Assembly: GCA_035268685.1 (NCBI GenBank)
Contig: DATFKK010000036.1
Location: 5,510 to 69,509, forward strand
Direction: 5' to 3'
DNA length: 64,000 nt
From: Candidatus Krumholzibacteriia bacterium
GTDB taxonomy: Bacteria > Krumholzibacteriota > Krumholzibacteriia > JAJRXK01
The notes below the pieces were generated by a model. The model was given only the letters and a program-made list of their open reading frames with translations, ran no database searches and was not told where the DNA came from. Shown here one piece after another: positions 27,063-48,132 of the stretch (positions are counted from its first letter, which is position 1; every line of letters begins with the position of its first letter). A program made the position numbers and the translations under genes.

Positions 27063-29333
27063 CTAGCGCTCGAAACCGATCCGCAGCGTGTCCTGTTTCA
27101 GCCGTTTGGCCATCTGCTCGTACTGGGCCTCGGTCTCGGCCGTGACCGAGGGCACGGTCTCCTCGATCGCGGCGAGGAATTCCTCGTGGCCGACACGCTC
27201 GGCCCGTGGATCGGTACGAAGTGCCAGCATGCCGGCACGGGTGCACACGCCTGCGATGTCGGCCCCACTGAATCGTGCCGTACGGGTGGTCAGATCATCC
27301 AGGTCGACGTCGTCGCCGACGTGCATGCCACGCAGCTGCGCCTCGAAGATCTTGCGCCGTTGCTCGGCGTCGGGCATCGGAACGTAGACCATCTCGTCGA
27401 GTCGGCCGGGGCGCAGCAGAGCCGGATCGACCCGGTCGGGGCGGTTGGTCGCGCCGAGGATGCACACGCCCTGAAGTTCCTCGACACCGTCGAGCTCGCT
27501 GAGAATCTGGTTGACCACGCGCTCGGTCACCGCGGGCTCCCCCAAGGACCCGCCACGCACCGGCGCCAGCGAGTCGAGCTCGTCGAAGAAGATCACGGCT
27601 GGCGCCACGTGCCGCGCACGCTGGAAGAGCTCTGCGATCTTCTTCTCGGACTCGCCGTACCACTTCGACAGCAGCGAACTGCCGCGTGCGGCGAGGAAAT
27701 TCGCCCCCGCCTGGTTGGCGACGGCCTTCGCCACCAGCGTCTTGCCCGTGCCCGGCGGCCCGTACAACAGGATCCCCTTCGGCGCGCGAATCCCCAACCG
27801 CAGGAACGCACCCGGATCCTGCAGCGGCAGCTCGACCATCTCGCTCAGCGCCCGCTTGACGTTCTCGAGCCCGCCGACGTCCTCCCAGGTGACACGCGGG
27901 ATCTCCACCATGACCTCGCGCAGCGCCGAGGGCTGGATCTCCTTGAAGGCCTCGTCGACATCGGCGTTGGTCACCTCGAGCTGCTCGAGCTTCTCGCTCG
28001 GAATGGTGTTCTGCTCGAGATCGAGTTCGGGAAGCATCCGGCGCAGCGTCTCCACGGCGGACTCGCGGGCCAATGCGCTGAGATCCGACCCCGTGTAACC
28101 GTGGGTGCGGGCTGCGATCCCCTCGAGGTCGACGTCCTCGTGCAGAGGCATGCCGCGCGTGTGGATCTGCAGGATCTGGAATCGGCCGTCCTGGTCGGGA
28201 ATCCCGGCCACGATCTCACGATCGAAGCGACCCGGGCGACGCAGGGCCTCGTCGACCGCGTCGATGCGGTTCGTGGCCCCGATCACCACGACGTTGCGTC
28301 GAGCCTTCAGTCCGTCCATCAGCGTGAGCAGCTGGGCGACGATCCGGCGCTCGGTCTCCCCGCTCACGTCACCCCGTTTCGGGGCGATCGAGTCCAGTTC
28401 GTCGATGAAGATGATCGCCGGGGCGTTCTTCTCGGCCTCTTCGAAGACCTGCCGCAGTCGTTCCTCCGACTCGCCGTAATGCTTGCCCATGATCTCGGGC
28501 CCGTTGACGACGGCGAAGTAGGAATCGGTCTCGTGGGCGACGGCCCGGGCCAGCAGGGTCTTGCCGGTTCCGGGTGGGCCGTGCAGCAGAACGCCCAGCG
28601 GAGGTTCGATACCGAGACGGTCGAAGAGCTCGGGGTGCCGCAACGGAAGTTCGATCATCTCGCGGACCTTGGCCACGGCGTGGTCCAGTCCGCCGATGTC
28701 GTCGTAGGTGATGACGTGGCCCTCGTCCTCGCGCACCTCGGTGTACTCGGGCGCGAGTTCGATCTCGGTCTCCGGGGTGACGCGCACCACGCCGCGGGGC
28801 TTGGTCGAAACCACGGTCAGCCGGATCTCCATGAGACCGAAGGCCGGCGATTCGAAGAAGTCGCGGAAGAAGTCGTCCCGGTAGCCGTCGGTGCCCACGC
28901 TCTGCCGTGGTCGCCGGAACACGCTCGTCGACACCAGGTCGCCCGACAGCACGGGACGGTGTAACAGAGTGGGGCGTAGGGCCTCGCCCGTGCCGGCCAC
29001 ACGCAGCCCCTTCTGGGCGGGCGCCACGACCACACGGGCAGCCGGACTCCACTCGGCCTCACGGATCTCGACATGCTCACCGATGCCGACACCGACGTTG
29101 TGCCGAGTGAGACCGTCCAGTCGCACGATCTCGAGTCCCACGTCCTCCTGCTCGACCGGAACGACGGTGGCGGCCGTGAGATGCTTGCCCTCGACCTCGA
29201 CCACGTCCCCGCGCTCGAGGCCGAGTGCCCGCATGCTCTCGGGTCCCAATCGGACGATTCCCTTGCCGACGTCGTTCTGGCGCATCTCCGCGACCTTCAG
29301 ACGGATCGCGTTCTGCGTCTGCTGGGGGGACAT
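27063..29333 (-). CDS. CDC48/VCP-like AAA+ ATPase (N-domain + two AAA domains).
   Basis: Two Walker A motifs (GPPGTGKT twice), two Walker B motifs (IIFIDELD, VIFFDELD), second-region-of-homology Arg residues, and a CDC48-N-like double-psi barrel N-terminus. Confidence 0.9.
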   Translation of the reverse strand: MSPQQTQNAIRLKVAEMRQNDVGKGIVRLGPESMRALGLERGDVVEVEGKHLTAATVVPVEQEDVGLEIVRLDGLTRHNVGVGIGEHVEIREAEWSPAARVVVAPAQKGLRVAGTGEALRPTLLHRPVLSGDLVSTSVFRRPRQSVGTDGYRDDFFRDFFESPAFGLMEIRLTVVSTKPRGVVRVTPETEIELAPEYTEVREDEGHVITYDDIGGLDHAVAKVREMIELPLRHPELFDRLGIEPPLGVLLHGPPGTGKTLLARAVAHETDSYFAVVNGPEIMGKHYGESEERLRQVFEEAEKNAPAIIFIDELDSIAPKRGDVSGETERRIVAQLLTLMDGLKARRNVVVIGATNRIDAVDEALRRPGRFDREIVAGIPDQDGRFQILQIHTRGMPLHEDVDLEGIAARTHGYTGSDLSALARESAVETLRRMLPELDLEQNTIPSEKLEQLEVTNADVDEAFKEIQPSALREVMVEIPRVTWEDVGGLENVKRALSEMVELPLQDPGAFLRLGIRAPKGILLYGPPGTGKTLVAKAVANQAGANFLAARGSSLLSKWYGESEKKIAELFQRARHVAPAVIFFDELDSLAPVRGGSLGEPAVTERVVNQILSELDGVEELQGVCILGATNRPDRVDPALLRPGRLDEMVYVPMPDAEQRRKIFEAQLRGMHVGDDVDLDDLTTRTARFSGADIAGVCTRAGMLALRTDPRAERVGHEEFLAAIEETVPSVTAETEAQYEQMAKRLKQDTLRIGFER

Positions 29334-33413: not shown

Positions 33414-36505
<3,092 letters not shown>

Positions 36506-36509
<4 letters not shown>

Positions 36510-37666
36510 GACGACTCCTCGGCGGTGCGCAGCGGGGCCCCGTCGACGACGGTGGTGAGATTCGTGGTGACCACCCGGTCTCCGTCCTCGAGTCCTTCGC
36601 TCACGTAGACGTACTGCTGGTCGCGCACCTCGATCCGGACGTCACGGACGTCGAGTGCTCCGTCCTGCATCACCCACACGGTGTCGTCCGCGCGCAGGTA
36701 CTCGCGCGGAAGACGGACCGCTCCCTCGACGGGCCGGCCCTCGATCCGTGCCTCGACGAAGGAGCCGAGGATCAGCGGCCGACGATCCGCGTCGCCGTCT
36801 TCGCGCACGAGTGGGTCGTCGACCGTCACCAGCACCCGCGCGAGACGCGTGCGGCCCTCCAGCGAGCCGATCAGCCGATGCAGACGGCCTTCGCGGAACG
36901 CGCCCTCGGGCCACGCGGTGCGATTGCGCACCCGTACCCGCGCCCCGGCTTCGCCGTCCTCGGGGAAGCGCAGCCAGTCGAGCTTCGGCACGGGAACGGC
37001 CACGACGACCCAGTAGGTGTCGACACCCACCAACCGCGCCAGGGTGTCGCCCGGCCGCACGTGGGACCCGAGGTCGGCGGTGCGCTCGAGCACGTGGGCG
37101 TCGAAGGGCGCGAGCACCGTGGTGCGCTCGAGTTCCAGCTCGGCCTGTTCCAGCGCCGCGCGCGCGGCCTCGACCCGGGCGCGCGCGGTCTCGAGCTGGG
37201 GCTCGCGCAGCACCAGCGCCTCGTTGCCGGGCTCGAGTTCGGTGTCGAGCAGCTCGTAGTCCTGGCGCGCCACGTTCTGCCGCCCCATCTCGACGTCGAG
37301 GTCCGCCTGGGCCTGCGCCAGATCGCTACGCCGCTGCCGCACCTGGTTGCGGTAGTCGCTGGGATCGATGCGCACGAGCAACTCGCCCGCGTCGATGAAG
37401 CCCCCGGGCTCGAACGACGGTGCGACCTCCACGATCTGCCCCTCGATCCGCGGGGCCGCCACGACGTCGCGCGCCGGCTCGACCACCCCGGTGACCACGA
37501 CCGTGGGGCGATAGGTCCCCCGACGGACCTCGAGCAGATCGACGAGCATCGCCGTCTGCTTCGTGGCTCCTTCGCGCTTCGCCTCGGGTTCGGTGGCGAA
37601 GAGGATGGCAATCGCACCGGCCCCCGCCGCGACGATCGCCACGCAGATGATCAGGGTCCTCTTCAT
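36506..37666 (-). CDS. RND efflux periplasmic adaptor subunit (HlyD/MFP family).
   Basis: N-terminal TM/signal, coiled-coil hairpin ([30 protein letters not shown]...) and a beta-barrel/MP domain. Its start overlaps the OMF gene's stop (ATGA). Confidence 0.9.
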
Positions 37667-39066
37667 CGGCTCTGCCCTTCCTGGGCGTCGGGAACTCGTG
37701 GATCGTGGATGGGCCCCGCGAGCGCGCGGTACAGGGCGATGCGCGTCTCCAGACGTGCGCGCTGCACGGCCAGTCGGGCCCGGCGGAGCTCCTGCGTCTC
37801 GGTCAGGGCCGTGAGGACGTCGAGATAGCCGCCGAGACCGTTCAGGTACTGGCTGCGCAGCTGCTCGTAGGACTGCACGGCCAGTTCGATCTGCCGGTCG
37901 AGGCTGCGGATCCGCTCCGACTGCTTCTGCTCGAGGACCAGCGCGTCCTCGACCTCGCGGAAGGCCTCGAGAACGGCCTGAACGTAGTCGAACAGGCGTT
38001 GGGCGCGGACGGCATCGGTCCGCTCGACCTCGGCTCGGAGCGCCCCACCGCGGAAGATCGGCGCCAACAGGTCCCCCGCGAGCCGCGCGATCCAGTCTTC
38101 GAACAGACCGGACGGCTCCGATGCAGTCGTGGTGATCGAAGCGGTGAGATCGATCCGGGGATACCGCTCACGGATCGCCGTGGCGAGATCGCGATCGGCC
38201 GCCTGCACGTCGAACCAGGCGCGGCGCACGTCGGGCCGGCGCTCGACCAGCGCGGCCGGAACGCCCGTGGCCGGGAGCGGTGGCAGAGCCGGCAGCTCGA
38301 CCGTTCCCGTTGCCATCGCACTGCCGGCCGGCCGTCCGAGCAGCACCGCGAGCGCATGCTCCGACGTGCGCAGGCGACCCTCGGCCTCATGGATCCGCTC
38401 CCGCGTGGACTCCACGAGCTGACGTTGGCGCAGGACGTCCACGCTACGGATCCGGCCGCTGCCGAAGCGAGCCCCGAGCAACTCCAGCACGGCGACGTTC
38501 GTCTCCTCCTGCCGACGCAGGAGATCCACCTGACTGCGGGCCTCCACCACGCGACACCACGTCGACGCGACCTCCGCCGCCACGACGTGTTCCACCGCGC
38601 GCAGGTCGGCCCGGACGGCGGCCGCGCGGAAGCGATCGGCCTCGACCGAGGCGTCGACCGCACCGAAGAGATCGAGTTCGTAGCTCGATCGGAGACCGAG
38701 CGACATCTCCTCGCCGAAGACGAATCCCTCGCCTTCGCGCAGCTCACCCGTCGCGGTGGCGTCCAGCGAGGGAAGACGCCGGGCGGATTCGATTCCCAGA
38801 ACGGCATCGGCCTCGCGAATCCGTTCCCGTGCAGTCCGGACGTCGAGGTTCGATTCGAGAGCGCTGTCGACCAGCGAGTCGAGGGCCGTGGCTCCGAAGT
38901 CGGTCCACCAGCGGGCGGAAGGGGGCTCCGCGCCGGTCCGCGCGAAGCGCTCGGGGGCGCTCACGCCGGTGTCGACGGGCGTCGGCGAGGGTCCGCACGC
39001 AGCCAGGAGGGCGATCCACAGCAGTGCGGTGGTGCGGCGCGGGGCGCGGGAAGGCATCGTCGGCAT
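37663..39066 (-). CDS. Efflux outer-membrane factor lipoprotein (TolC/NodT family).
   Basis: Trimmed to MPTMPSRAPRRTTALLWIALLAACGPSP (lipobox). Two TolC-type repeat halves with long helical segments. Confidence 0.85.
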   Translation of the reverse strand: MPTMPSRAPRRTTALLWIALLAACGPSPTPVDTGVSAPERFARTGAEPPSARWWTDFGATALDSLVDSALESNLDVRTARERIREADAVLGIESARRLPSLDATATGELREGEGFVFGEEMSLGLRSSYELDLFGAVDASVEADRFRAAAVRADLRAVEHVVAAEVASTWCRVVEARSQVDLLRRQEETNVAVLELLGARFGSGRIRSVDVLRQRQLVESTRERIHEAEGRLRTSEHALAVLLGRPAGSAMATGTVELPALPPLPATGVPAALVERRPDVRRAWFDVQAADRDLATAIRERYPRIDLTASITTTASEPSGLFEDWIARLAGDLLAPIFRGGALRAEVERTDAVRAQRLFDYVQAVLEAFREVEDALVLEQKQSERIRSLDRQIELAVQSYEQLRSQYLNGLGGYLDVLTALTETQELRRARLAVQRARLETRIALYRALAGPIHDPRVPDAQEGQSR

Positions 39067-39246
39067 TCGGCCGGGGACGGGAGAGTGCGACCCGCACATC
39101 ATAGCGGGAAGTGCGCGTTCGTCATATCCGACACGACTCGGACCGTGACCCCGCCGCCAACGAGAACACCCGGCCACCTCACGGCGACCGGGCGTCTCTT
39201 TCGGACTCGGCGGAACCGGGGCGACGGCCCGGACCGCGTCGTTCAC

Positions 39247-39699
39247 TCAGTCCTTCGCGTGGCAGTCGTTGCAACGCGTCGGCGCGGCGTAAGCCTCTTC
39301 GCCCGTGTCCATGTCCTTGTGGCAACCCACACAGCTGATGTGGTAGGCGTTCTTCTTGAGACTCATCGACGAGCAGTCGGGCACACCGTCCCCGGCGGGC
39401 TCGAAGTGGCACGACACGCAGGTCTCGACCTCGGTCTCGGCGACGTTCTCGAGCGTCAGGCCTTCGGTCGTGTGGTGGCAGGTGACGCAGTCGCTGACTT
39501 CGAAGTGGGCCGTGTGCGGGAACTCCACGAGCCCCTTCTTCTCGCCACAGCCGTCGAGGGTCATGACGTCCGGCAGACCGCCCTCTTCTTCTTCGGCAGC
39601 ATTGGCCGGCACGTAGGTCGCGCCCCAGACGAGGGCGAACACGGCGGCGACGGCGAGACATGCGAAAGCCGCGGTGCGGATACCTCTGGAATCGATCAT
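39247..39699 (-). CDS. Periplasmic tetraheme cytochrome c3 (class III).
   Basis: ATG 39699 with GGAGG 7 nt upstream. Signal MIDSRGIRTAAFACLAVAAVFALVWG. Four CXXCH motifs (CVTCHH, CVSCH, CVGCH, CNDCH) in about 120 mature residues plus a bis-His ligand motif FPHTAHF. Confidence 0.8.
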   Translation of the reverse strand: MIDSRGIRTAAFACLAVAAVFALVWGATYVPANAAEEEEGGLPDVMTLDGCGEKKGLVEFPHTAHFEVSDCVTCHHTTEGLTLENVAETEVETCVSCHFEPAGDGVPDCSSMSLKKNAYHISCVGCHKDMDTGEEAYAAPTRCNDCHAKD

Positions 39700-39916
39700 G
39701 GTTGGTTCCTCCGAGTTCGGAAAGAGGGTCGCGGGTGCGAGATGAAAACGGTGATCAAAATCTTCCCGACCAACGCCGCGATCCTCGTTGAGCCTACGCT
39801 CAGATCGTGAAATTCCTAGAGTGAGGCTGTACCGATTCGGTGATCCGCACGGAAGTGACACGGGAAGATTCCGACATAACGTCAGGATTCCGTGAAGTGC
39901 GCCCGGTCTCCGATCG

Positions 39917-41104
39917 TCACCGGAGTCGCGCCAGGATCGCGTCGGTGACCTGCTGGGTGGTCGCCGCGCCCCGTCCCACCACATCGGGGCCTCCCGGCAG
40001 ACGCATCATGTCGTAGGTGCGGACCCTGCCCTCGACCACGACGTCGCCGACGGCGCGGCGCACCGCCTCGGCCCGTCTGGTCTCGCCGACGTGGTCGAGC
40101 AGCATCGCCGCCGACAGGATCATGGCAATGGGATTCACGATGCTCGGCTCGAGCTCGGCGTACCGGGGCGCCGAACCGTGCGTGGGCTCGAACACCGCCA
40201 CGTCGTCGCCGATGTTCCCCGAACCCGCGAAGCCCAGCCCCCCCACCAGCCCGGCAAAGGCATCGCTGACGATGTCGCCGAAAAGGTTGCCGGCCACGAC
40301 CACCCCGTAGTCCTCGGGGTTCCGGGTCAGCCACATCATCTGCGCGTCGACGTTCGTACTCCGGAGCTCGATCTCGGGGAAGTCGGCGTGCACCTTCCCG
40401 GCTTCTTCCACCATCATGCCGCCGGTCTCGCGCAGCACGTTCGGCTTCTCGCACACGGTCACCGAGCGGTACCCGTGCTCACGCGCGTAGCCGAAGGCGG
40501 CGGTCAGGATCCGGCGCACGGCGCGGCGCGTGAACAGGCGAACGGAGACGGCCAGATCCTCTTCCGGTGTCTCGGCGAAGCGTCGCCAATTCGGATGCAG
40601 GGACAGGGCATCGCGCACCGCCTGCGGGGGATCGGTCCATTCGATGCCGGCGTACAGGCCCTCGGTGTTCTGACGGAAGATCACCACGTCGATCATGGGT
40701 TCGTCGATCGGCTCGGCACTCCCGCGGCGGACGAAGTTCAGTGGATTGCCGGCGAAGCTACGGCACGGGCGGATGCAGACGTCGAGGTCGAAGTGCTGCC
40801 GCAGGCCGACGATCGGACTGGAGTAGTCGAAGCCGTGGTCGCGCAGATCCGCGTCGAGATCCTCGGCGGCTTCCTTCTTCGGTTTGCTCGTGATCGCACC
40901 GAAGAGGCCGAGCCGGTGGCGTTCCAGGAGAGCGATCGTCGCGTCGGGCAGCGGATCGCCGGTGCGCCTCCAGCACTCCCAGCCGATGTCGGCGTGGAGG
41001 TAGTCGGCGTCGAAGCCCACTTTCTCGAGGACGCGGACCGCTTCGGGCAGGACGATGGCACCGATCCCGTCCCCGGGCATGGTGACGACGGTGTGCCTGG
41101 CCAT
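39917..41104 (-). CDS. Isocitrate/isopropylmalate dehydrogenase family protein (LeuB- or homoisocitrate-DH-like).
   Basis: Trimmed to MARHTVVTMPGDGIGAIV (41104, with GAGGAGG upstream). Family motifs include the Rossmann-like N-terminus GDGIG and the metal/substrate motif GNLFGDIVSDAFAGLVGGLG. Confidence 0.85.
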   Translation of the reverse strand: MARHTVVTMPGDGIGAIVLPEAVRVLEKVGFDADYLHADIGWECWRRTGDPLPDATIALLERHRLGLFGAITSKPKKEAAEDLDADLRDHGFDYSSPIVGLRQHFDLDVCIRPCRSFAGNPLNFVRRGSAEPIDEPMIDVVIFRQNTEGLYAGIEWTDPPQAVRDALSLHPNWRRFAETPEEDLAVSVRLFTRRAVRRILTAAFGYAREHGYRSVTVCEKPNVLRETGGMMVEEAGKVHADFPEIELRSTNVDAQMMWLTRNPEDYGVVVAGNLFGDIVSDAFAGLVGGLGFAGSGNIGDDVAVFEPTHGSAPRYAELEPSIVNPIAMILSAAMLLDHVGETRRAEAVRRAVGDVVVEGRVRTYDMMRLPGGPDVVGRGAATTQQVTDAILARLR

Positions 41105-41121
41105 GACCGCGAACCTCCTCG

Positions 41122-43074
41122 TCAGAACTTCAGTTCGCGCCGGATCATGGATTCGATTCCTCCCGCTGCCACCAGCGACTGGGGAAGCTCGCCCATCGGT
41201 GGGAAGGGATACTCGCGACCGTCGTAGCGGACGACGCCGGCCACGAAGTCGACGGTCACCGTCGCCGGGGCGACGACGGTGCGGAGGTCCTGTGCGGAGC
41301 GCACCGAGCGGATGGACTCGACGAACTCGGGGCACGTGATGCAGGGAAGGCCGTTGTTGTACGCGTTGCGCAGGAAGGTCTGCGCAAAGCTCCCAGCGAT
41401 GACCAACCGGATCCCGGCTGCGGTGAGTGCGGTGGCGGCCTGTTCGCGGCTGCTGCCGGTGCCGAAGCCGAATCCACCGACCAGGACGTCGCCCTCGCGA
41501 ACGATCGAGGCGAAGTCGGGGTCGTGGTTCTCCAGGACCACACGGGCCATCTCCCCGGCGCTCAGGTCACGGTAGGTGTGGTCCTTTCCGTACATGGCGT
41601 CGGTGTCGAGGTCGTCGGCGGGCACGACGATCGCACGACCCTCGATGCGCTCGGGAAAGCCCTCGAGGATCTCGACCGGTTCGACGAGCGCGGCGTCGGT
41701 CTCCACACCGCATTCGAACCGGGCCGTCGCCACCGGCCCCTCGGTCCGCACGCCCGACGGCGCGGTGATCTCGCCCTCGAGCGCCGAGGCCGCCACGACG
41801 GCGGGACCGGCCAGAAAGGCCCTCGCGTCGCGCGAACCCATGCGTCCTGGAAAATTGCGATTGGTCGCGCTGATCGCGACCTCGCCCGGCTCGAGCGATC
41901 CCTCGCCCAGACCGATGCACGGCCCACAACCCGGCGGCAACGCGTGGGCGCCCGCGTCGAGCAGCGTCTGCCAGGTCCCGTCGGCCTCGGCCGCCGCCTG
42001 CACGTCGGCACTCGCGGCCGCCACGTAGAACGACACCCCGTCGTGCACGTGACGCCCCCTCAGAACACGTGCCGCGGCCTGCAGGTCCTCGAGCCTCCCG
42101 TTCACGCAACCCAGCAGATAGGCCTTGTCGATCTTCGTGTGTCGCGCACCGACCTCGGCCACCGTGGCCAGGGCGCGGACGCTGTCGGGACCTGCGACCA
42201 CGGGCCGCAGGGTCGAGAGATCGAACTCGATGCGACCGGCGTAGACCGCATCGGGGTCGGCAGCCGGAGGGTCGGTGGACCAGTGCATCAGATCGGCCTC
42301 GCAGAAACGCTGTTCCCCACACGCGGCCAGGGCGTTGCGCACTCGACGCATGTGGTCGACGGTCACCTCGTCCACGGGGAAGATTCCCGCCAGCCCACCC
42401 CACTCGGTGGTCATGTTGGCGATGCTCAGCCGCGCGTCCATGCCGAGCGAGGCGACGCCGTCGCCGGTGAACTCGACGACCGCGTTCAGCACCTCACCGG
42501 CCGCGAACATGCCGCACAGGGCCAGGATCACGTCCTTGCCCGCCACTCCCGTGGCCAGTTCTCCACGAAGTTCCACCCGCAGGGTCCGCGGCACCTGCCA
42601 CCAGAACGTACCGGTGCTCCAGACCGCCGCGGCGTCGGTGCGGACGATCGGCGTGCCCAGAGCACCCAGTGCACCGTACGTGGTGGCGTGGGAATCGCTG
42701 GCCACACACAACGATCCCGGAACCACGTAGCCGCGCGACACCATGATCTGATGGCCGATGCCGGTGCCGGCGGGGTAGAAGTCCACGCCGTGGCCGCGCG
42801 CGAAGCCCTCGATCGAAGCGTACCTGCGCTGGTTGGCCTCGCTGCGGTTCTGGACGTCGTGGTCGAGCGCGAACACGGGCTGGGTCGGGTCGTGGATCCT
42901 GCCCACGCCGATCGCACGGAACTTCTCGATGACCGCGGCCGTGTTGTCGTGGGTGAGGACGTGCCGGGGACACAGACCGACGACGTCGCCGGCACGGATC
43001 CGGCGCCGCGGTCCGCGCGTCATGTGCGCCTGGACGATCTTCTCGGCCAGGGTCTGGCCGCCGACGGTGTTCAC
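41122..43074 (-). CDS. Aconitase-family dehydratase with fused large (LeuC-like) and small (LeuD-like) subunits.
   Basis: N-terminal roughly 420 aa carry the LeuC Fe-S ligand region (ASDSHATTYGALGALG, CGPCIG). The C-terminal roughly 190 aa are LeuD-like (swivel domain, GGFGFGTGSSREQAATAL). Start reassigned from the track TTG (43092) to GTG at 43074, overlapping the upstream gene's TGA (GTGA). Confidence 0.85.
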   Translation of the reverse strand: MNTVGGQTLAEKIVQAHMTRGPRRRIRAGDVVGLCPRHVLTHDNTAAVIEKFRAIGVGRIHDPTQPVFALDHDVQNRSEANQRRYASIEGFARGHGVDFYPAGTGIGHQIMVSRGYVVPGSLCVASDSHATTYGALGALGTPIVRTDAAAVWSTGTFWWQVPRTLRVELRGELATGVAGKDVILALCGMFAAGEVLNAVVEFTGDGVASLGMDARLSIANMTTEWGGLAGIFPVDEVTVDHMRRVRNALAACGEQRFCEADLMHWSTDPPAADPDAVYAGRIEFDLSTLRPVVAGPDSVRALATVAEVGARHTKIDKAYLLGCVNGRLEDLQAAARVLRGRHVHDGVSFYVAAASADVQAAAEADGTWQTLLDAGAHALPPGCGPCIGLGEGSLEPGEVAISATNRNFPGRMGSRDARAFLAGPAVVAASALEGEITAPSGVRTEGPVATARFECGVETDAALVEPVEILEGFPERIEGRAIVVPADDLDTDAMYGKDHTYRDLSAGEMARVVLENHDPDFASIVREGDVLVGGFGFGTGSSREQAATALTAAGIRLVIAGSFAQTFLRNAYNNGLPCITCPEFVESIRSVRSAQDLRTVVAPATVTVDFVAGVVRYDGREYPFPPMGELPQSLVAAGGIESMIRRELKF

Positions 43075-44450
43075 GACCGGTCCCTCTGACAAAGGGACAT
43101 GAAGTTCCGCGCCGAGCCGAAGTCGTCGAGCATCCAGACCGTCTCCTTCACTCGCTTCCGGGCGATCTCACTGAGGACGGGATCGGACAGGGCGTCGAAC
43201 TTGGCCTCGATCTCGTGATCGCTCAGGGGATTGCGAGGATCACCCTTCGGGTGGTCCAGCTTCTCGGAGAACTCGCGCCCGTCCTTGGTCCGGATCCTCA
43301 CGACCGCCTGCTGGAGCTCGGGGAACACGGCCTCGACGTCGGGATCGGGCATGACCTCCACCTTGCCCAGCTGCGCCCGCAACACCGGATCGGCGATCCT
43401 CTCGGGCGTGAACTGCGCCGGGGTGACGTTCCGGTCCACGAGGACGGCTGCGATCACGTAGGGCAACGAGTGGTCGGCCGTCTCCTTGCTCTGCGGATCG
43501 TACTTGCTGGGATCGGCGAGGATGTCCGCGGCGCGCGCCGTCGTTCGGACCAGAACGCTCTCGATCTCGTCGGGTGCGAGATCGTTGTCGCGGACGATGT
43601 CGAGCGTGGCCGAGATCGGCGCGTGGGTGAGCGCCTCGGTCGGAAAGGCCTTCATGCCACATCGTTCGATCCGCCAGGTCTCGCCCAGTCCGTCGGTCAG
43701 CACGTCGAGATCCCACTCCGGTCCCAGGCAGTGCACCAACCCCTCCTTGCCGTCGATCACGTGCCGCGGGCCGGTGTACCCCCGCTCGGCCAGCAGCGCG
43801 GCCGTCATTCCCGACTGGGTGGCCATCGGGTCGACCGAATTCTTCGTCATGGTCAGTTCGCCCGCCGTGACCGCTCCGAAGGTCGCGTTGTGCGACGCCG
43901 CGATGCCGATGGCGTGCTGGATGCGCTCGGTGTCGAGTCCCAGCAACCGGCCCGCTACGATCGGGGAGACGACGGCCGTCAGGGTGGCGTGGTGCCAACC
44001 GCGTTCCCTGATCCCGGGAAAGGCGGCCTCGGCCAGCCGCATCTCGAACTCGTGACCCAGCACCACTCCCAGCAGCAGATCGCGTGCATCGAGGTCCTGA
44101 CGTTCGCAGGCGGCCATGGCGGCCGGGATCACGTCGCTCGGATGCACCGGATCCTGCCGCCAGTAGATGTCGTTGTAGTCCATGGAACGGATCATCAACG
44201 CGTTCGCGAGTGTGGCCGACACGGGATCGGCCTTCTCGCCACTGGCCAGGACGGTGCACTCACCGGTGCCCGCGCACTCGGCGAGCACATCCAATGCGAT
44301 CCCGCAGTCCTCCTGCAGGAATCCACCGAACGCGCACCCCACCGAATCCAGGAGGAAGCGCTTGGCCTGGTGCAGGACCTCGGGTGGAATGTCGTCGAAG
44401 CGCAGGCCGGCAGCCCACCGGGCCATGGTCGCGGTGACGGTGTCGGACAT
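43071..44450 (-). CDS. MmgE/PrpD family protein (2-methylcitrate dehydratase-like).
   Basis: Trimmed to MSDTVTATMARWAAGLRFDDIPPEVLHQAKRFLLDSVGCAFGG, the typical PrpD N-terminus, with GGAAGG upstream. 459 aa. Confidence 0.85.
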   Translation of the reverse strand: MSDTVTATMARWAAGLRFDDIPPEVLHQAKRFLLDSVGCAFGGFLQEDCGIALDVLAECAGTGECTVLASGEKADPVSATLANALMIRSMDYNDIYWRQDPVHPSDVIPAAMAACERQDLDARDLLLGVVLGHEFEMRLAEAAFPGIRERGWHHATLTAVVSPIVAGRLLGLDTERIQHAIGIAASHNATFGAVTAGELTMTKNSVDPMATQSGMTAALLAERGYTGPRHVIDGKEGLVHCLGPEWDLDVLTDGLGETWRIERCGMKAFPTEALTHAPISATLDIVRDNDLAPDEIESVLVRTTARAADILADPSKYDPQSKETADHSLPYVIAAVLVDRNVTPAQFTPERIADPVLRAQLGKVEVMPDPDVEAVFPELQQAVVRIRTKDGREFSEKLDHPKGDPRNPLSDHEIEAKFDALSDPVLSEIARKRVKETVWMLDDFGSARNFMSLCQRDRS

Positions 44451-44730
44451 TGCGAACCCTTCCGTCCGGAACGCGGCCGGACGTACGCAGAGGAGCCGGA
44501 CACGGAGGCGATCGCCACGACGCCCCCGGTCCGTCGGATTCGGAGATGAGACCCAGCGTGGCACCGCCACCACCACGGTCGACAGCGTGGAACTGTGAGA
44601 ACCGCGCAGGCCGTCGGGCCGAAAATGTGAGCTCGCGCGTCGCCGTGATGCACGTGCACCGGGCAGGCAGAGCGGAGGGACGATCCGACCGGGTCCCTCC
44701 GCCCCGGGGGGCACACGTACGGGGAGTACG

Positions 44731-45921
44731 CTAGAACGCAGCCGTGAAGCCGACGACCGCGCGTGTCTCCTCGATCTCGAGGTCGTAGGTCAGCTCGGCG
44801 ATCATCCGCAGATTCCGGGCGTGCAGATGCGACCACGACGCGGTCACCGTCTCGTAGTCGGTGGCGTCGTCGTCGGAGTCGATCCAGTTGTACAAGAGGA
44901 CGACGGCATCCATGCCGTCGGGACCGGCCGGCATGATCGTCAGTTCGCCGATCACGCCGTCGGTCTCGATCTCCGATCCCGAGCCCGTGGCGTCGCTGTC
45001 GGTTCGATGCAGGTATTGCACGCTCGCCGAGACCTTGTCGAAGCCCACGTGCACGTCGGGACCGAAGACTTCGACATCGTTCTCGAAGCCGGTACCGCTC
45101 GCGCTCAGGGCCTCGGTCGTGGCGTAGTAGGTTCCGGCCGCGGTGACCGGACCCGCCGCGTAGACCAGGCGCCCGAGGTAGCCCTTGTCTGGGTCACGAT
45201 CGAAGAAGTCGTCTCCTCCGTCTTCCGCGGCGGCCAGGCCGTTGCCGTTGACCACCTCACCCACGAGGGACAGACCGATCGGCGTGTCGTAGGTGACCAG
45301 CACTCCACGATCGTAGGTGAGCCGTGCGACCGATCCTCCGGGTTGCGCCTTGTAGATCTCGTAGTCCTCGAAGGTCAGGCGCAGCTCGCGCTTCATCATG
45401 GGGTCGGAGATCTGGAACTGACCGACCATCACGTCGAGAGGTTGCCCCCCGAGATCGTTGAAGTGCAGGTAGGCGTCTTCCACCCCGGCGACCTCGCCCT
45501 CCTCGGCCATGTAGAAGTAGACGTAGTAGCCCACGTCGTCCATCACACTGCCACCACTCAGGAGCTTGATACCCCACGGAACCTGCAGATCGGGGACGTT
45601 CTCGTCGTCCTCCCGTGTCTCGTAGACGCCGTAGGCGTCCAGACGCACGGCCAGGGGCAGGTCGCGTTGGAGCAACAACTCCGGGTCGCCCGTGTCCTGG
45701 TAGGCTCGACGTGGTTCCTCGCCGTCGGGAAGACGGAAGCCGTTGCCGGCGAACTCGTCACCGTAGTCCTTCAGACGCGGAGCCGGCGCGTGGCACGTCG
45801 TACACGAGAGATTGTACTTGCGGGCGAAGGCGGGTATCGCGTTCGCCTCGGACACGAAGGTACTCACGAGCACCAGTGCCGCGATCATCGGGAACACAAG
45901 GTTCTTCGTCGTCTTCATCAC
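44731..45921 (-). CDS. Cyc2-like fused monoheme cytochrome c - outer-membrane beta-barrel porin.
   Basis: Signal (LVFPMIAALVLVSTFVSEANA), then a single heme motif CTTCH at about residue 42 in the context PAFARKYNLSCTTCH. The roughly 350-aa remainder has alternating amphipathic beta-strands and a C-terminal aromatic residue (VGFTAAF), the defining architecture of Cyc2 iron oxidases. Its start overlaps the upstream cytochrome gene's stop. Confidence 0.65.
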   Translation of the reverse strand: MMKTTKNLVFPMIAALVLVSTFVSEANAIPAFARKYNLSCTTCHAPAPRLKDYGDEFAGNGFRLPDGEEPRRAYQDTGDPELLLQRDLPLAVRLDAYGVYETREDDENVPDLQVPWGIKLLSGGSVMDDVGYYVYFYMAEEGEVAGVEDAYLHFNDLGGQPLDVMVGQFQISDPMMKRELRLTFEDYEIYKAQPGGSVARLTYDRGVLVTYDTPIGLSLVGEVVNGNGLAAAEDGGDDFFDRDPDKGYLGRLVYAAGPVTAAGTYYATTEALSASGTGFENDVEVFGPDVHVGFDKVSASVQYLHRTDSDATGSGSEIETDGVIGELTIMPAGPDGMDAVVLLYNWIDSDDDATDYETVTASWSHLHARNLRMIAELTYDLEIEETRAVVGFTAAF

Positions 45922-47333
45922 CAGTTCACCACCTCGACGGAAGTATCGGCTTCGCCGACGACGACGGCCTCGGTCTCCTCTGCGGGGACGTCGAGGAAGT
46001 CACCGACGGACTTCACGAGTTTGCGATAGCGGAGCACGGCCTCGAACCGCAGCTCCCCGTAGGGCACGTCCTGCGGGACCGTGAACAGATAGGTTTCGGT
46101 CTTGGTCTCTCGGGGCGCGATCCGGTAGTCGGTCCCCAGGCTCGCCGTGTTCCACTGCATGATGGTGCGGCGACCCTGCTCGTCGAAGTAGGGCAGGCAG
46201 AAGATCCGGTCGCCTTCGTAGGCCGTGGAGTCCCGGGGCAGGCCGGCGAAGTCCGGATCGTCCAGAGGTTCGCCCATGTCCTGGTAGGCCAGCTCGTTGC
46301 TGGTGATGGTCTGCTCCTCGCCCTCGAAGCCCTTCTTCTCGACCGGGAGGTGATACCGATTGCCATCGGCGTCGACGGCGTGGACGGTCACCCACAGCTG
46401 TCGCTCCTCGGCCGAGCCCGAAGGCACCTTGTGCCCGGCCTTGCCGTTGAACAGCGCCAGCTTCAGGGTCACCGGATCGCCGGGAAGACACTCAGGATGC
46501 TCGGTCCACATGACCATCTCGACCACACCGGCGAGCTTGCTCTGGTGATGGGCACCGTGGAAGAGGTGGTTCCGCCGATCGTCGACCACCTCGGCCCCCA
46601 TGATCGCGAGGCGCCCGTGCCCCGGCGGCATGTGGCAGTCGTGACAGGTGATCCCCATGTCCGGGTACGGACCCTCGGCGTACTCGAGCTGTGTGCTCTT
46701 CACCCAGACGTCGTAGGGACTCTTCTCGTTGTGGCAGGTCCCGCAGAACTCCGCACTCTGGATGAACTCGCTCTTGGCGGTGAGGTGGTGCGGCGACTCC
46801 ATGCCCTCGCGCCCGCCCCACTTCGTGCGACCGGGCTTCACGAGGTAGTTGTAGTTGTGGGGAACCTCTCCGGCGAAACCCACGACCTGATGGCACATGT
46901 CACAGTTCACGGCCTCGTCGGCCATGCTCCCCTCACCGGGCCGCGGCGGCGGGGTGTCGCCCGCGAGGAACGAGACGGGCGCGTGGCAGCCGTTGCAGCC
47001 GTGCTTCACCTCGGCCACCTTCTCCTTCCGCTCGGCGTGGGGTACGGCGAGCCGGAAGTATTCGATCTCGTCCCAGTGGTGCGTGTAGGCCTGGCTCATG
47101 AGCGAGCGGCGCCACTGCCCGGCGATGTCCAGATGACAGCCGGTGCACTGCTGGGCAGGTTGGAAGTCGTCGTAGGAGAACTGACCGTGGGCGTCGTCCC
47201 CGGAGGGGATCGCCCGGAGTTCCTCCTCGGGCAGGACCCCCGTCACGGGCTGGGCGAGAACCGGACAGGTCAGGAGCAGAACGAGGAATCCCGCTACGCA
47301 CGAGGCGAAGCGGGAGATCGCGGGGATGGGCAT
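45918..47333 (-). CDS. Periplasmic pentaheme c-type cytochrome.
   Basis: Trimmed to MPIPAISRFASCVAGFLVLLLTCPVLAQP (47333, with GGAGG upstream). Five CXXCH motifs: CTGCH, CNGCH, CDMCH, CGTCH, CHDCH. Confidence 0.8.
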   Translation of the reverse strand: MPIPAISRFASCVAGFLVLLLTCPVLAQPVTGVLPEEELRAIPSGDDAHGQFSYDDFQPAQQCTGCHLDIAGQWRRSLMSQAYTHHWDEIEYFRLAVPHAERKEKVAEVKHGCNGCHAPVSFLAGDTPPPRPGEGSMADEAVNCDMCHQVVGFAGEVPHNYNYLVKPGRTKWGGREGMESPHHLTAKSEFIQSAEFCGTCHNEKSPYDVWVKSTQLEYAEGPYPDMGITCHDCHMPPGHGRLAIMGAEVVDDRRNHLFHGAHHQSKLAGVVEMVMWTEHPECLPGDPVTLKLALFNGKAGHKVPSGSAEERQLWVTVHAVDADGNRYHLPVEKKGFEGEEQTITSNELAYQDMGEPLDDPDFAGLPRDSTAYEGDRIFCLPYFDEQGRRTIMQWNTASLGTDYRIAPRETKTETYLFTVPQDVPYGELRFEAVLRYRKLVKSVGDFLDVPAEETEAVVVGEADTSVEVVNW

Positions 47334-47509
47334 GAGTCCTCCGATATGTCGAGCACCCACCGGAATGGGCGCCGGATCGCGCGACGCGGAAGCCTGGTCG
47401 AGGACAGGTGGCTCCCGGCGTCACGCTCTCGATTCACTGCGCGAGGCATTCCATCTATACCAGCCTCGGCCGATCGAACCCATGATGCATGTGGATCAGA
47501 TCGGTGGGA

Positions 47510-47998
47510 TCACTCGCTCTCGCCGAGACGATGATCACGTAGATGCTCGAGCTCCTCGGGGCCGAAGTACGCCGCACTGAACTCCGAGATCAGCTCGTCG
47601 AGCTTCTCGGTGTGCGCCGTTTCCGTGGTCTGCTTCGACTTCATGGCGTGCACGAGCATCTCGTGAAGCAGTGTGAGCTGCTTCACGTAGTCCGAGTCGT
47701 CGGCACCGGCCGGCTTGATCCGCTGGTGCAGGAAGTACTGGCTGACGATGTGCTGGAACTCGACGGCGTGCTGTTCCTTGTTGGTGATCCAGCGCACGAT
47801 CTGATTGTAGTTCTTGTCGCCCTCGGCGGTCAGGGCGTCGATCTGGTTCATGGCTTTCTCGATCGTGGTCACGTGCTCGCGCAGCATCTCGATGCGCATG
47901 GCGTCGCCGTAGATCCCGCACGGGATCTCGCAGTGGGCGCGCACGGTGGCGGGAGCGAGAAGGACGAGCAACAGGGCGGCGCTCAGGGCACGGCGCAT
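47510..47998 (-). CDS. sodN: Nickel superoxide dismutase with a Sec-type signal peptide (periplasmic).
   Basis: MRRALSAALLLVLLAPATVRA | HCEIPCGIYGDA. The Ni-hook motif H-C-x-x-P-C-G-x-Y directly follows a predicted AxA signal-peptidase site, so His1 becomes the N-terminus. The rest is a four-helix-bundle-length (about 140 aa) sequence. Confidence 0.85.
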   Translation of the reverse strand: MRRALSAALLLVLLAPATVRAHCEIPCGIYGDAMRIEMLREHVTTIEKAMNQIDALTAEGDKNYNQIVRWITNKEQHAVEFQHIVSQYFLHQRIKPAGADDSDYVKQLTLLHEMLVHAMKSKQTTETAHTEKLDELISEFSAAYFGPEELEHLRDHRLGESE

Positions 47999-48132
47999 GG
48001 GAGTACCTCTCGTGGGGGGACGGGTTCTCGTTGCGTGCCATGCAGTCTAGGCCGAGGCGCGAGGGGACGCCACGCGCACCACGCCGTGGCCCCCTCCTTC
48101 CCCGGGACGCCGTCTGGGGGTCCTCCGGCTCG

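What the first reader, a model, noticed from the sequence alone, without database searches (positions are those of the whole stretch)
47510..47998. NiSOD matured by signal peptidase instead of a SodX-type propeptide protease
The Ni-hook HCEIPCG starts immediately after a classical Sec signal peptide ending VRA. In Streptomyces and cyanobacteria the mature His1 is exposed by the dedicated peptidase SodX cleaving a short propeptide, and the enzyme is cytoplasmic. Here signal-peptidase cleavage would generate His1 and place the enzyme in the periplasm. No sodX-like peptidase gene is adjacent; the neighbour is an HD-domain hydrolase.
Basis: partly seen in the sequence, partly recalled or inferred. 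Interest (0 to 1): 0.5.

Follow-up and report, generated by a model that had tools for sequence, protein, structure and literature searches.

The report
Signal-peptide nickel superoxide dismutase, probably periplasmic
This gene encodes a nickel superoxide dismutase whose essential first histidine sits directly behind an ordinary secretion signal, so the cell's general signal peptidase probably does the job of the dedicated protease SodX; this design is real but common in many bacterial phyla, not special to this genome.

Summary
Window 47510-47998 (minus strand) encodes a 162-aa Sod_Ni protein (Pfam 110 bits). Its Ni-hook HCEIPCGIY starts right after a 21-aa leader, MRRALSAALLLVLLAPATVRA, with all sequence features of a Sec/signal-peptidase-I signal.

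- All 120 closest homologues, 133 of the 150 best 50%-identity cluster representatives and 76 of 80 genome loci have a variable hydrophobic leader that ends exactly before His1.
- Position -1 is Ala/Ser/Gly in 95% of 232 leaders; position -3 is small or aliphatic in 99%.
- No S26/SodX gene was found in the 64-kb window or within 2.5 kb of sodN in the 80 loci. The same method found SodX next to a Streptomyces sodN.

The design is not rare or new. At least 585 species genomes from many phyla carry it. NCBI already names this Krumholzibacteria protein "superoxide dismutase [Ni]". A 2025 paper used such a NiSOD signal peptide as a search bait, and laboratories already make NiSOD in E. coli from a pelB fusion.

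One possibly underappreciated feature is a conserved His-rich C-terminal tail, seen in the signal-peptide type but not in the Streptomyces comparison set.

Verdict: a new member of a known but little-discussed kind. Interest is modest.

The parts
48006..48011 (-). Shine-Dalgarno-like GAGAGG, 7 nt upstream of the ATG
   Evidence: Read directly from the sequence. Supports ATG 47998 as the start, so the leader is translated.
47936..47998 (-). Signal peptide, residues 1-21: MRRALSAALLLVLLAPATVRA. The n-region is MRR, the h-region is 16 uncharged residues, and the c-region is P(-6)ATV(-3)RA(-1).
   Evidence: The family-wide cleavage-site statistics match signal peptidase I (-1 is A/S/G in 221/232; -3 is A/V/L/I/S/G in 229/232; K/R in the first 8 residues in 221/232; median length 23).
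47933..47938 (-). Predicted signal peptidase I cleavage site, Ala21 | His22
   Evidence: Inferred from the -3/-1 rule. The leader ends exactly at His1 in 120/120 homologues, 133/150 representatives and 76/80 loci. It aligns with the SodX site VSA|H of Streptomyces.
47909..47935 (-). Ni-hook HCEIPCGIY (mature residues His1, Cys2, Pro5, Cys6, Gly7, Tyr9)
   Evidence: H22, C23, P26, C27 and G28 are invariant and Y30 is nearly invariant in alignment A1. The hook aligns to HCDLPCGVY of PDB 1q0d.
47513..47935 (-). Mature NiSOD, 141 aa, four-helix bundle
   Evidence: Pfam Sod_Ni at 110 bits. hhalign to Streptomyces SodN gives 96.6% probability. The AlphaFold2 model has pLDDT 88.9. Foldseek finds 1t6u and other NiSOD chains at TM 0.71-0.79 of the target.
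47513..47572 (-). C-terminal tail AYFGPEELEHLRDHRLGESE with conserved His residues (HxxxH); possibly handles nickel
   Evidence: At least 2 His in the last 20 residues in 167/212 signal-peptide-type proteins against 0/117 Streptomyces-type proteins. Tail sequences are listed. The function is inferred only.
47510..47512 (-). Stop codon

Best explanation
The gene encodes a pre-NiSOD that is exported unfolded through the Sec translocon of a diderm bacterium (a Candidatus Krumholzibacteria MAG). The housekeeping signal peptidase I (LepB) cuts between Ala21 and His22. That cut creates the free alpha-amine of His1. Together with the Cys2 amide N, the two thiolates of Cys2 and Cys6 and the His1 imidazole, this amine forms the nickel site, so nickel can only be loaded after cleavage, that is, in the periplasm. 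The enzyme then folds as a four-helix bundle, presumably into a hexamer, and removes superoxide made or arriving outside the cytoplasmic membrane, which superoxide cannot cross. No dedicated SodX protease is needed.

Shown here: the NiSOD identity and fold, the canonical signal-peptide and signal peptidase I site features, their conservation across hundreds of lineages, and the absence of an adjacent sodX.

Inferred: actual export, the exact cleavage, periplasmic nickel loading and SOD activity. Also inferred, and speculative, is that the conserved His-rich C-terminal tail helps capture nickel before the two hook cysteines are oxidised.
For: (1) Identity. Pfam Sod_Ni scores 110 bits. hhalign to Streptomyces SodN gives 96.6% probability, E 6.4e-10, 117 columns, with A|HCEIPCG aligned to VSA|HCDLPCG. 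The AlphaFold2 model has pLDDT 88.9, and the 16 best PDB matches are all NiSOD.

(2) The leader is a signal peptide. It has a basic n-region, a Leu-rich 16-residue h-region, Pro at -6 and V-R-A before His. Among 232 family leaders, -1 is A 174, S 38, G 9; -3 is A 101, V 55, L 45, I 13, S 9, G 6; -2 is bulky or charged; median length is 23. The sequences of the leaders vary freely, but their character and end point do not.

(3) No dedicated protease nearby. No S24/S26 domain was found in about 46 window genes. phmmer with Streptomyces SodX against all 11,690 ORFs of the window and loci found only itself. Among 288 ORFs within 2.5 kb of sodN in 80 loci, the only S24/S26-type candidate identified is an XRE/LexA-type repressor. 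The called genes of three further relatives' loci show none either. Positive control: Streptomyces sodX lies adjacent to sodN and is detected (Pfam S26 E 4e-12; TIGR02754 88 bits).

(4) The organism has a periplasm. The window encodes a TonB-dependent receptor, OMP beta-barrels, a TolC-like OEP and an RND pump.

(5) Experimental precedent. A pelB-NiSOD fusion is exported and recovered from the E. coli periplasm by osmotic shock, then nickel-loaded in vitro (PMC10685849).

(6) A published search used the signal peptide of a planctomycete NiSOD followed by His and retrieved 'many Ni-superoxide dismutases' (PMC12537917).
Against: No signal-peptide predictor (SignalP, TatP) could be run, and nothing here is experimental.

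Only 64 kb of the genome was available, so a sodX-like gene elsewhere is not excluded.

The leader contains a second small-x-small motif (A15-P16-A17 | T18). Cleavage there would leave four extra residues and prevent nickel binding. From my recollection of von Heijne's cleavage-site rules, Pro at -2 is disfavoured, and this motif is not conserved in relatives.

The periplasm is thiol-oxidising. Recombinant periplasmic NiSOD from E. coli needed TCEP before nickel loading, so how native enzymes keep Cys2 and Cys6 reduced is unexplained.

The protein scores only 42.7 bits against NCBIfam TIGR02753 sodN (cut-off 90). It is therefore a divergent subfamily whose activity has, to my knowledge, not been assayed.
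Confidence: 0.8

Rival explanations
1. Export uses the Tat pathway rather than Sec. The twin arginines (M-R-R-A-L-S) would direct a folded, perhaps already oligomeric, apo-protein across the membrane, and signal peptidase I would still cut before His1.
For: RR at positions 2-3 is conserved in most of the 27 closest relatives. The query has Arg at -2, which resembles a Sec-avoidance residue. From my own knowledge, the periplasmic Fe-SOD of Desulfovibrio is a Tat substrate.
Against: The leader is only 21 aa, with a 3-residue n-region and a very hydrophobic Leu-rich h-region (best 10-residue Kyte-Doolittle window 2.98). Tat signals are typically longer and less hydrophobic. Only 37 of 232 family leaders have RR near the start, and most start MKK or MKR. 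A basic residue in the last five positions occurs in 53 of 232. Nickel cannot be inserted before cleavage, so exporting the folded protein brings no cofactor advantage.
Confidence: 0.07
2. The hydrophobic leader is not removed by signal peptidase I. Either it stays as a membrane anchor, or it is removed by a SodX-like or other protease encoded elsewhere, and the enzyme works at or inside the cytoplasmic membrane.
For: Only 64 kb of the genome was inspected. SodX is itself an S26 signal-peptidase homologue (TIGR02227 54.9 bits), and its Streptomyces site V-S-A|H obeys the same -3/-1 rule. A distant SodX could therefore in principle cut V-R-A|H.
Against: An uncleaved leader would block the His1 amine, so no nickel site could form, yet the hook is under strict conservation. 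Sixteen uncharged residues with Pro at -6 and A/S/G at -1 is the pattern of cleavable signals, not of anchors. In 80 loci and 3 further relatives no S26 gene lies nearby, whereas the classical system keeps sodX adjacent.
Confidence: 0.07
3. The exported protein is not mainly a superoxide dismutase. It would use its His1/Cys hook and His-rich tail as a periplasmic nickel-binding or nickel-delivery protein, or for another redox task.
For: It is below the NCBIfam sodN equivalog cut-off (42.7 against 90 bits). Asp3 is replaced by Glu or Gln throughout the clade. The His-rich tail resembles nickel-chaperone tails (my own knowledge). The 2025 'signal strapping' study found several signal-peptide-His1 proteins that bind and deliver metals rather than catalyse.
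Against: The whole hook is conserved, including Tyr9 (Y in 197 and F in 15 of 212), and the NiSOD four-helix fold is retained. Several relatives sit beside other oxidative-stress genes: rubrerythrin in 6 and desulfoferrodoxin in 2 of the 288 neighbouring ORFs. No nickel transporter or nickel enzyme is a conserved neighbour.
Confidence: 0.05

Closest known systems
Streptomyces SodN with its maturation protease SodX (PDB 1T6U, 1Q0D; NCBIfam TIGR02753 / TIGR02754)
   Same: Same Ni-hook (H-C-x-x-P-C-G-x-Y) and same four-helix-bundle fold (TM 0.71-0.79 of the target). Both need an N-terminal cut that makes His residue 1. The cut site has small residues at -3 and -1 (VSA|H against VRA|H). The cutting enzyme belongs to the S26 signal-peptidase family in both cases.
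   Different: The Streptomyces leader is a 14-aa non-hydrophobic propeptide. The protease is a dedicated protein encoded next to sodN, which I take from my own knowledge to be soluble and cytoplasmic, and the enzyme is cytoplasmic. Here the leader is a full Sec signal, no sodX is nearby, sequence identity is only about 20%, Asp3 is Glu, and there is an extra His-rich tail of about 20 aa.
Cyanobacterial (Prochlorococcus/Synechococcus) SodN with SodX
   Same: Both are nickel SODs that require N-terminal processing. In the searched literature, lack of sodX is read as possible loss of function (PMC8346466).
   Different: The cyanobacterial enzyme is cytoplasmic and SodX-dependent (established knowledge, not tested here). 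The clade described here offers a SodX-independent route.
Ubiquitin-NiSOD fusions of marine algae (PMC6332867)
   Same: Another way of exposing His1 that borrows a general cellular protease instead of SodX. That the cut is made by a deubiquitinase is my inference; the paper passages I read do not discuss it.
   Different: Eukaryotic, with a ubiquitin leader. The location is probably cytosolic or plastid-related (my assumption), and no membrane translocation is involved.
Engineered pelB-NiSOD expressed in the E. coli periplasm (plasmid pET-22b-pelB-NiSOD; PMC10685849)
   Same: [quoted passage not shown] From my own recollection, the leader abuts His1 and signal peptidase I makes the native N-terminus.
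   Different: It is artificial. The protein comes out nickel-free with oxidised cysteines and must be reduced (TCEP) and nickel-loaded in vitro. The natural proteins presumably solve this in vivo.
Periplasmic superoxide dismutases of other metal types: Cu,Zn-SodC (Sec) and the periplasmic Fe-SOD of sulfate reducers
   Same: Same physiological logic. Superoxide does not cross membranes, so diderm bacteria place a separate SOD in the periplasm (PMC9448743 states that SOD acts in the periplasm of sulfate reducers).
   Different: Unrelated folds and metals. In those enzymes the signal-peptide cut has no role in building the metal site.
Signal-peptide-His1 metalloproteins (LPMOs, CopC, DUF4198, 'anglerases'; PMC12537917)
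   Same: Signal-peptide cleavage creates an N-terminal histidine whose amine and imidazole chelate the metal. That paper used a NiSOD signal peptide (WP_230780104.1, Roseiconus lacunae) as bait.
   Different: Those proteins have other folds and mostly bind or deliver Cu or Ni. Here the hook also supplies two thiolates and an amide N for redox catalysis.

Membership tests
NiSOD (Pfam PF09055 Sod_Ni) | Profile match above the curated gathering score | tested here: met
   110 bits against a cut-off of 25, E 1.5e-31, residues 18-145.
NiSOD (NCBIfam TIGR02753 sodN equivalog) | Score at or above the equivalog cut-off (90 bits) | tested here: not met
   42.7 bits, E 6.2e-11. Streptomyces P0272 scores 196.5. 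The protein belongs to the superfamily but to a divergent subfamily outside this equivalog model.
NiSOD | Ni-hook H-C-x-x-P-C-G-x-Y at the start of the mature chain | tested here: met
   HCEIPCGIY at residues 22-30. H, C, P, C and G are invariant and Y is nearly invariant in 46 relatives.
NiSOD | Four-helix-bundle fold like 1T6U | tested here: met
   AlphaFold2 pLDDT 88.9. Foldseek ranks 1-16 are all NiSOD chains, probability 1.00, TM 0.71-0.79 of the target.
NiSOD | Nickel binding, SOD activity and homohexamer | not testable with these tools
   Needs purified protein.
SodX-dependent maturation system (sodN-sodX) | A dedicated S26-family protease gene (TIGR02754) next to sodN | tested here: not met
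   None in the 64-kb window. None identified within 2.5 kb in 80 related loci. The control locus L085 has it adjacent. The rest of the genome could not be searched.
SodX-dependent maturation system (sodN-sodX) | A short propeptide without a hydrophobic core (14 aa in Streptomyces) | tested here: not met
   The leader is 21 aa with 16 consecutive uncharged residues and a best 10-residue Kyte-Doolittle window of 2.98.
Sec-type signal peptide cut by signal peptidase I | Basic n-region, hydrophobic h-region, c-region with small neutral residues at -3 and -1, helix breaker near -6, no Pro at +1 | tested here: met
   MRR / ALSAALLLVLLA / P(-6)ATV(-3)RA(-1) | H. The family statistics agree.
Sec-type signal peptide cut by signal peptidase I | Call by a trained predictor (SignalP 6) and experimental cleavage | not testable with these tools
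   No predictor is available and no experiment was possible.
Lipoprotein signal (signal peptidase II) | Lipobox [LVI][ASTVI][GAS]C with Cys at +1 | tested here: not met
   Cys is at +2, behind His. The sequence V-R-A-H-C does not fit (read directly).
Tat signal peptide | S/T-R-R-x-F-L-K motif with a long n-region and a weakly hydrophobic h-region, conserved in relatives | tested here: inconclusive
   RR is present (M-R-R-A-L-S), but the n-region is 3 residues, the h-region is very hydrophobic, and RR occurs in only 37 of 232 family leaders. TatP is not available.

The most novel reading that the evidence does not exclude
The signal-peptide type may be the main, and possibly the ancestral, form of NiSOD. 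On this reading, the cytoplasmic propeptide/SodX system of actinobacteria and cyanobacteria is a derivative of the Sec/LepB pathway: the signal peptide lost its hydrophobic core, and a signal peptidase lost its membrane anchor. The conserved His-rich C-terminal tail would be a built-in nickel-capture device that lets a thiolate-ligated nickel enzyme assemble in the oxidising periplasm.
Probability: 0.25. Interest if true: 0.6.

Novelty: new member of a known kind. Interest (0 to 1): 0.35.

Why it matters
Reviews and comparative studies treat NiSOD as a cytoplasmic enzyme that needs SodX. Genomes with sodN but no sodX have been read as possibly unable to use it (PMC8346466). This gene belongs to a very large clade, spread across phyla, in which the general secretion machinery appears to do the maturation and places a nickel-thiolate enzyme in the periplasm.

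This has three consequences.
- Absence of sodX should not be read as a non-functional NiSOD unless the leader type has been checked.
- Many anaerobes and microaerophiles (Desulfobacterota, Calditrichota, Omnitrophota, Planctomycetota, Krumholzibacteria) probably use nickel to defend the periplasm against superoxide.
- It raises a testable biochemical question: how are two cysteine thiolates kept reduced and loaded with nickel outside the cytoplasm? The His-rich tail is a concrete candidate.

For this particular window, though, the gene is an ordinary, already-annotated representative.

Tried and rejected
- **phmmer against PDB:** the query alone found nothing at E <= 0.001. A profile of 46 relatives found NiSOD only weakly and only over the hook (E 0.0093). 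Profile-profile comparison and fold search were needed.
- **First motif screen for S26 peptidases:** the three-box regex found nothing, but it was too strict. The Streptomyces SodX control matches only one of its three boxes. I replaced it with phmmer using SodX, Pfam scans of 288 neighbouring ORFs with SodX as an in-run control, and a looser Ser/Lys-dyad regex. The Pfam batch tables show only the 25 commonest families, so for set A2 the absence of a second S24/S26 hit rests on the regex and phmmer.
- **The single S24 hit** near an SP-type sodN (L042:6855-7676) is an HTH-XRE/LexA-like repressor, not SodX.
- **Functional link to the neighbours** (HD protein upstream; five-haem cytochrome and a porin-like protein downstream): rejected. 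The order is kept only in near-identical contigs and not in relatives at 72-76% identity.
- **Promoter, terminator and Rfam scans around the gene** gave nothing usable. One sub-threshold SAM-IV match is probably chance.
- **Alternative start at GTG (Val19)**, which would give a 3-aa propeptide: rejected. The full leader keeps signal-peptide properties across hundreds of divergent sequences, and the ATG has a good Shine-Dalgarno sequence.
- **Lipoprotein signal:** rejected, because Cys is at +2.
- **Literature searches** found no paper that explicitly describes a native Sec-exported NiSOD. Dupont et al. 2008 could not be read, so an earlier mention there cannot be excluded.
- **Genome-wide search for sodX** in the source organism was not possible with the available data.

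Full report
**1. What is at the coordinates**

Window 47510-47998 on the minus strand is one ORF of 162 codons plus a stop. Its ATG (47996-47998) is the first start codon after the upstream in-frame stop. It is preceded by GAGAGG with a 7-nt spacer (48006-48011). The base composition by codon position (GC3 0.86) matches the other genes of this 68% G+C window.

The product is MRRALSAALLLVLLAPATVRA | HCEIPCGIYGDAMRIEML...AYFGPEELEHLRDHRLGESE. It matches Pfam Sod_Ni with 110 bits against a gathering score of 25.

**2. Is it a NiSOD?**

Sequence similarity to the solved Streptomyces enzymes is low. phmmer against PDB finds nothing, and a profile of 46 relatives finds 1q0d only over the hook (E 0.0093).

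Profile-profile comparison of the clade with a Streptomyces SodN alignment gives 96.6% probability (E 6.4e-10) over 117 columns. An AlphaFold2 model (pLDDT 88.9, four long helices) retrieves NiSOD chains as the 16 best PDB matches. These include 1t6u, 1q0d, 3g4x and 4ncq, with probability 1.00, TM 0.71-0.79 of the target and about 20% identity.

His, Cys, Pro, Cys and Gly of the hook are invariant and Tyr9 is nearly so. Asp3 of Streptomyces is Glu or Gln throughout the clade.

The protein falls below the NCBIfam sodN equivalog cut-off (42.7 against 90 bits). It is thus a divergent subfamily. Even so, NCBI already names this exact protein "superoxide dismutase [Ni]" (HKK70310.1, Candidatus Krumholzibacteria MAG).

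**3. Is the leader a signal peptide that ends at His1?**

The leader has these features:
- two Arg at positions 2-3;
- 16 consecutive uncharged, Leu-rich residues (best 10-residue Kyte-Doolittle window 2.98);
- Pro at -6, Val at -3, Arg at -2 and Ala at -1.

There is no lipobox, because Cys is at +2.

The comparative evidence is strong.
- All 120 closest homologues from the 5.8-billion-protein collection have a hydrophobic leader of 17-45 aa that ends immediately before HC[EQ][IVL]PCGI[YF].
- In an exhaustive search of 1.84 billion cluster representatives, 933 clusters match at E <= 0.001. Of the best 150, 133 have such a leader, 13 are fragments or lack the hook, 3 have other leaders and 1 has a short propeptide.
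- In 232 clean leaders, position -1 is Ala 174, Ser 38, Gly 9. Position -3 is Ala 101, Val 55, Leu 45, Ile 13, Ser 9, Gly 6. Position -2 is mostly bulky or charged, and Arg occurs there 22 times. Pro at -6 occurs 66 times. The median length is 23, and 221 have Lys or Arg in the first eight residues.

This is the classical signal peptidase I pattern. The leader sequences themselves are not conserved; only their character and end point are. That is what a signal peptide under selection to expose His1 would look like.

A second small-x-small motif in this particular leader (A-P-A | T, four residues earlier) has Pro at -2 and is not shared by relatives. I consider it unlikely to be used. SignalP could not be run.

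**4. Sec or Tat?**

The twin arginines are shared by the nearest 27 relatives but by only 37 of 232 leaders overall. The leader is short and very hydrophobic, which favours Sec. The His1 amine is a nickel ligand and exists only after cleavage, so nickel must be inserted after export whichever route is used. I keep Tat as a minor rival.

**5. Is a SodX present?**

As a positive control I fetched a Streptomyces sodN locus. A 144-aa S26/S24 protein lies divergently adjacent (L085:3421-3855). It scores 88 bits on TIGR02754, "nickel-type superoxide dismutase maturation protease".

No such gene was found around the SP-type genes.
- Pfam scans of about 46 genes across the 64-kb window show no S24/S26 domain.
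- phmmer with SodX against all 11,690 six-frame ORFs of the window and 86 loci hits only itself.
- I Pfam-scanned 288 ORFs within 2.5 kb of sodN in 80 genome loci of SP-type NiSOD, of which 54 have at least 2.5 kb on both sides. The only S24/S26-type candidate identified, with support from a Ser/Lys-dyad regex over all ORFs, is L042:6855-7676. It is an HTH-XRE/LexA-like repressor.
- The called genes of three further relatives also lack it.

A sodX elsewhere in these genomes cannot be excluded with the data available.

**6. How widespread is the design?**

The phyla include Calditrichota, Omnitrophota, Planctomycetota, Bacteroidota, Desulfobacterota, Zixibacteria, WOR-3, Latescibacterota, KSB1, Nitrospirota, Acidobacteriota and Poribacteria. 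Cultured species include Draconibacterium mangrovi and Desulfacinum infernum DSM 9756. Of the 80 loci returned, 76 encode a canonical leader.

Neighbours differ from lineage to lineage, so the gene stands alone. Rubrerythrin (6 ORFs) and desulfoferrodoxin (2 ORFs) recur among the neighbours, which fits an oxidative-stress role in anaerobes. The HD-domain and cytochrome neighbours in this window are kept only in near-identical contigs and not at 72-76% identity.

**7. Mechanism proposed**

The proposed sequence is Sec export of the unfolded precursor, cleavage by LepB at Ala21|His22, nickel binding in the periplasm, folding and oligomerisation, and removal of periplasmic or external superoxide. 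The window's organism is diderm: it encodes a TonB-dependent receptor, OMP barrels, a TolC-like OEP and an RND pump.

A laboratory precedent exists. pET-22b-pelB-NiSOD is expressed in E. coli, released by osmotic shock and then reduced with TCEP and loaded with NiCl2 (PMC10685849). This shows that the fold tolerates Sec export. From my own recollection, the pelB leader is removed by signal peptidase I to give the native His1. The same protocol also shows the difficulty: in an oxidising periplasm the hook cysteines are oxidised and nickel is not inserted spontaneously.

The SP-type proteins have a feature that the Streptomyces comparison set lacks, a conserved C-terminal tail (AYFxxE[DE]LxHLxxH[RH]...). 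At least two His occur in the last 20 residues in 167 of 212 SP-type proteins against 0 of 117 Streptomyces-type proteins. The His fraction is 0.117 in the tail and 0.046 in the body. I suggest, as inference only, that it helps nickel capture.

**8. Relation to the classical system**

The Streptomyces propeptide ends V-S-A | H and aligns column for column with V-R-A | H here. SodX is itself a signal-peptidase homologue (TIGR02227 54.9 bits). The two systems therefore look like two versions of one mechanism, one membrane-linked and one cytoplasmic. Which is ancestral cannot be decided here.

**9. Novelty**

The searchable literature does not explicitly describe a native Sec-exported NiSOD. Lack of sodX has been read as possible lack of function (PMC8346466).

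[quoted passage not shown] NiSODs of deltaproteobacteria and planctomycetes are in published trees (PMC6332867). The pelB construct has been in use for years. Dupont et al. 2008 could not be read.

The kind is therefore known implicitly, and this gene is a typical, already-annotated member of it. The scale of the clade, the systematic absence of an adjacent sodX and the His-rich tail are useful points but not a discovery specific to this window.

**Scores**

Interest is 0.35. Novelty is "new member of a known kind".

Noticed in passing
window 47513-47572 (-); relatives P0001-P0120: There is a conserved His-rich C-terminal tail (AYFxxE[DE]LxHLxxH[RH]...) in signal-peptide-type NiSODs. At least 2 His occur in the last 20 residues in 167/212 of them, against 0/117 in Streptomyces-type NiSODs. 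It may be a nickel-capture tail.
   Followed up: partly
P0168, P0170 (cluster representatives): A NiSOD domain is fused to a C-terminal type II secretion pseudopilin G domain (PF08334). These proteins also have a Pro/Ala-rich linker between the hydrophobic leader and His1 (...APV|HC...AVV|HC), so a simple signal-peptidase cut would not expose His1. N_methyl pilin-like ORFs are also frequent neighbours of sodN (5).
   Followed up: no
P0140, P0146, P0147, P0148, P0153, P0187; L067:723-1154: In these NiSODs a signal-like segment is followed by 10-25 further residues before His1. That implies a second, unknown processing step, or eukaryotic targeting peptides.
   Followed up: no
P0179: This is a NiSOD with a short 9-aa non-hydrophobic propeptide (MSSFVKVNA|HC) inside the otherwise signal-peptide-type clade. 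It is fused to a C-terminal rhodanese domain.
   Followed up: no
P0266, P0198: These relatives have the hook's His1 replaced (…ANA|QCDIPCGIYN) or lack the His-Cys pair (…QPQMPCGVYND). They may be variants that do not bind nickel or use another chemistry, or they may be sequencing errors.
   Followed up: no
window 44731-47360 (-): Directly downstream of sodN lies a 480-aa protein with five CxxCH haem motifs and a signal-like start. It overlaps by 4 nt a 396-aa protein with a signal peptide, one CxxCH and no Pfam match. The pair might be a cytochrome-porin type pair. It is not conserved next to sodN in relatives.
   Followed up: partly
L088:5560-7242 (-), L089:9712-10486 (+): A PDZ/S41 C-terminal processing peptidase lies next to or near sodN in two of three close relatives examined. 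This may be coincidence, or it may relate to the C-terminal tail.
   Followed up: no
L001-L080 neighbours: Rubrerythrin (6 ORFs) and desulfoferrodoxin (2 ORFs) recur within 2.5 kb of signal-peptide-type sodN in other phyla. This suggests small oxidative-stress gene neighbourhoods in anaerobes.
   Followed up: no
window 27063-29333 (-): A bacterial Cdc48/p97-like double-AAA ATPase with CDC48_N and CDC48_2 domains.
   Followed up: no
window 39917-44714 (-): A run of genes for a PrpD/MmgE-family protein, aconitase and isocitrate/isopropylmalate dehydrogenase, followed by a class III multihaem cytochrome (39247-39984) and an RND efflux system (33414-39246).
   Followed up: no
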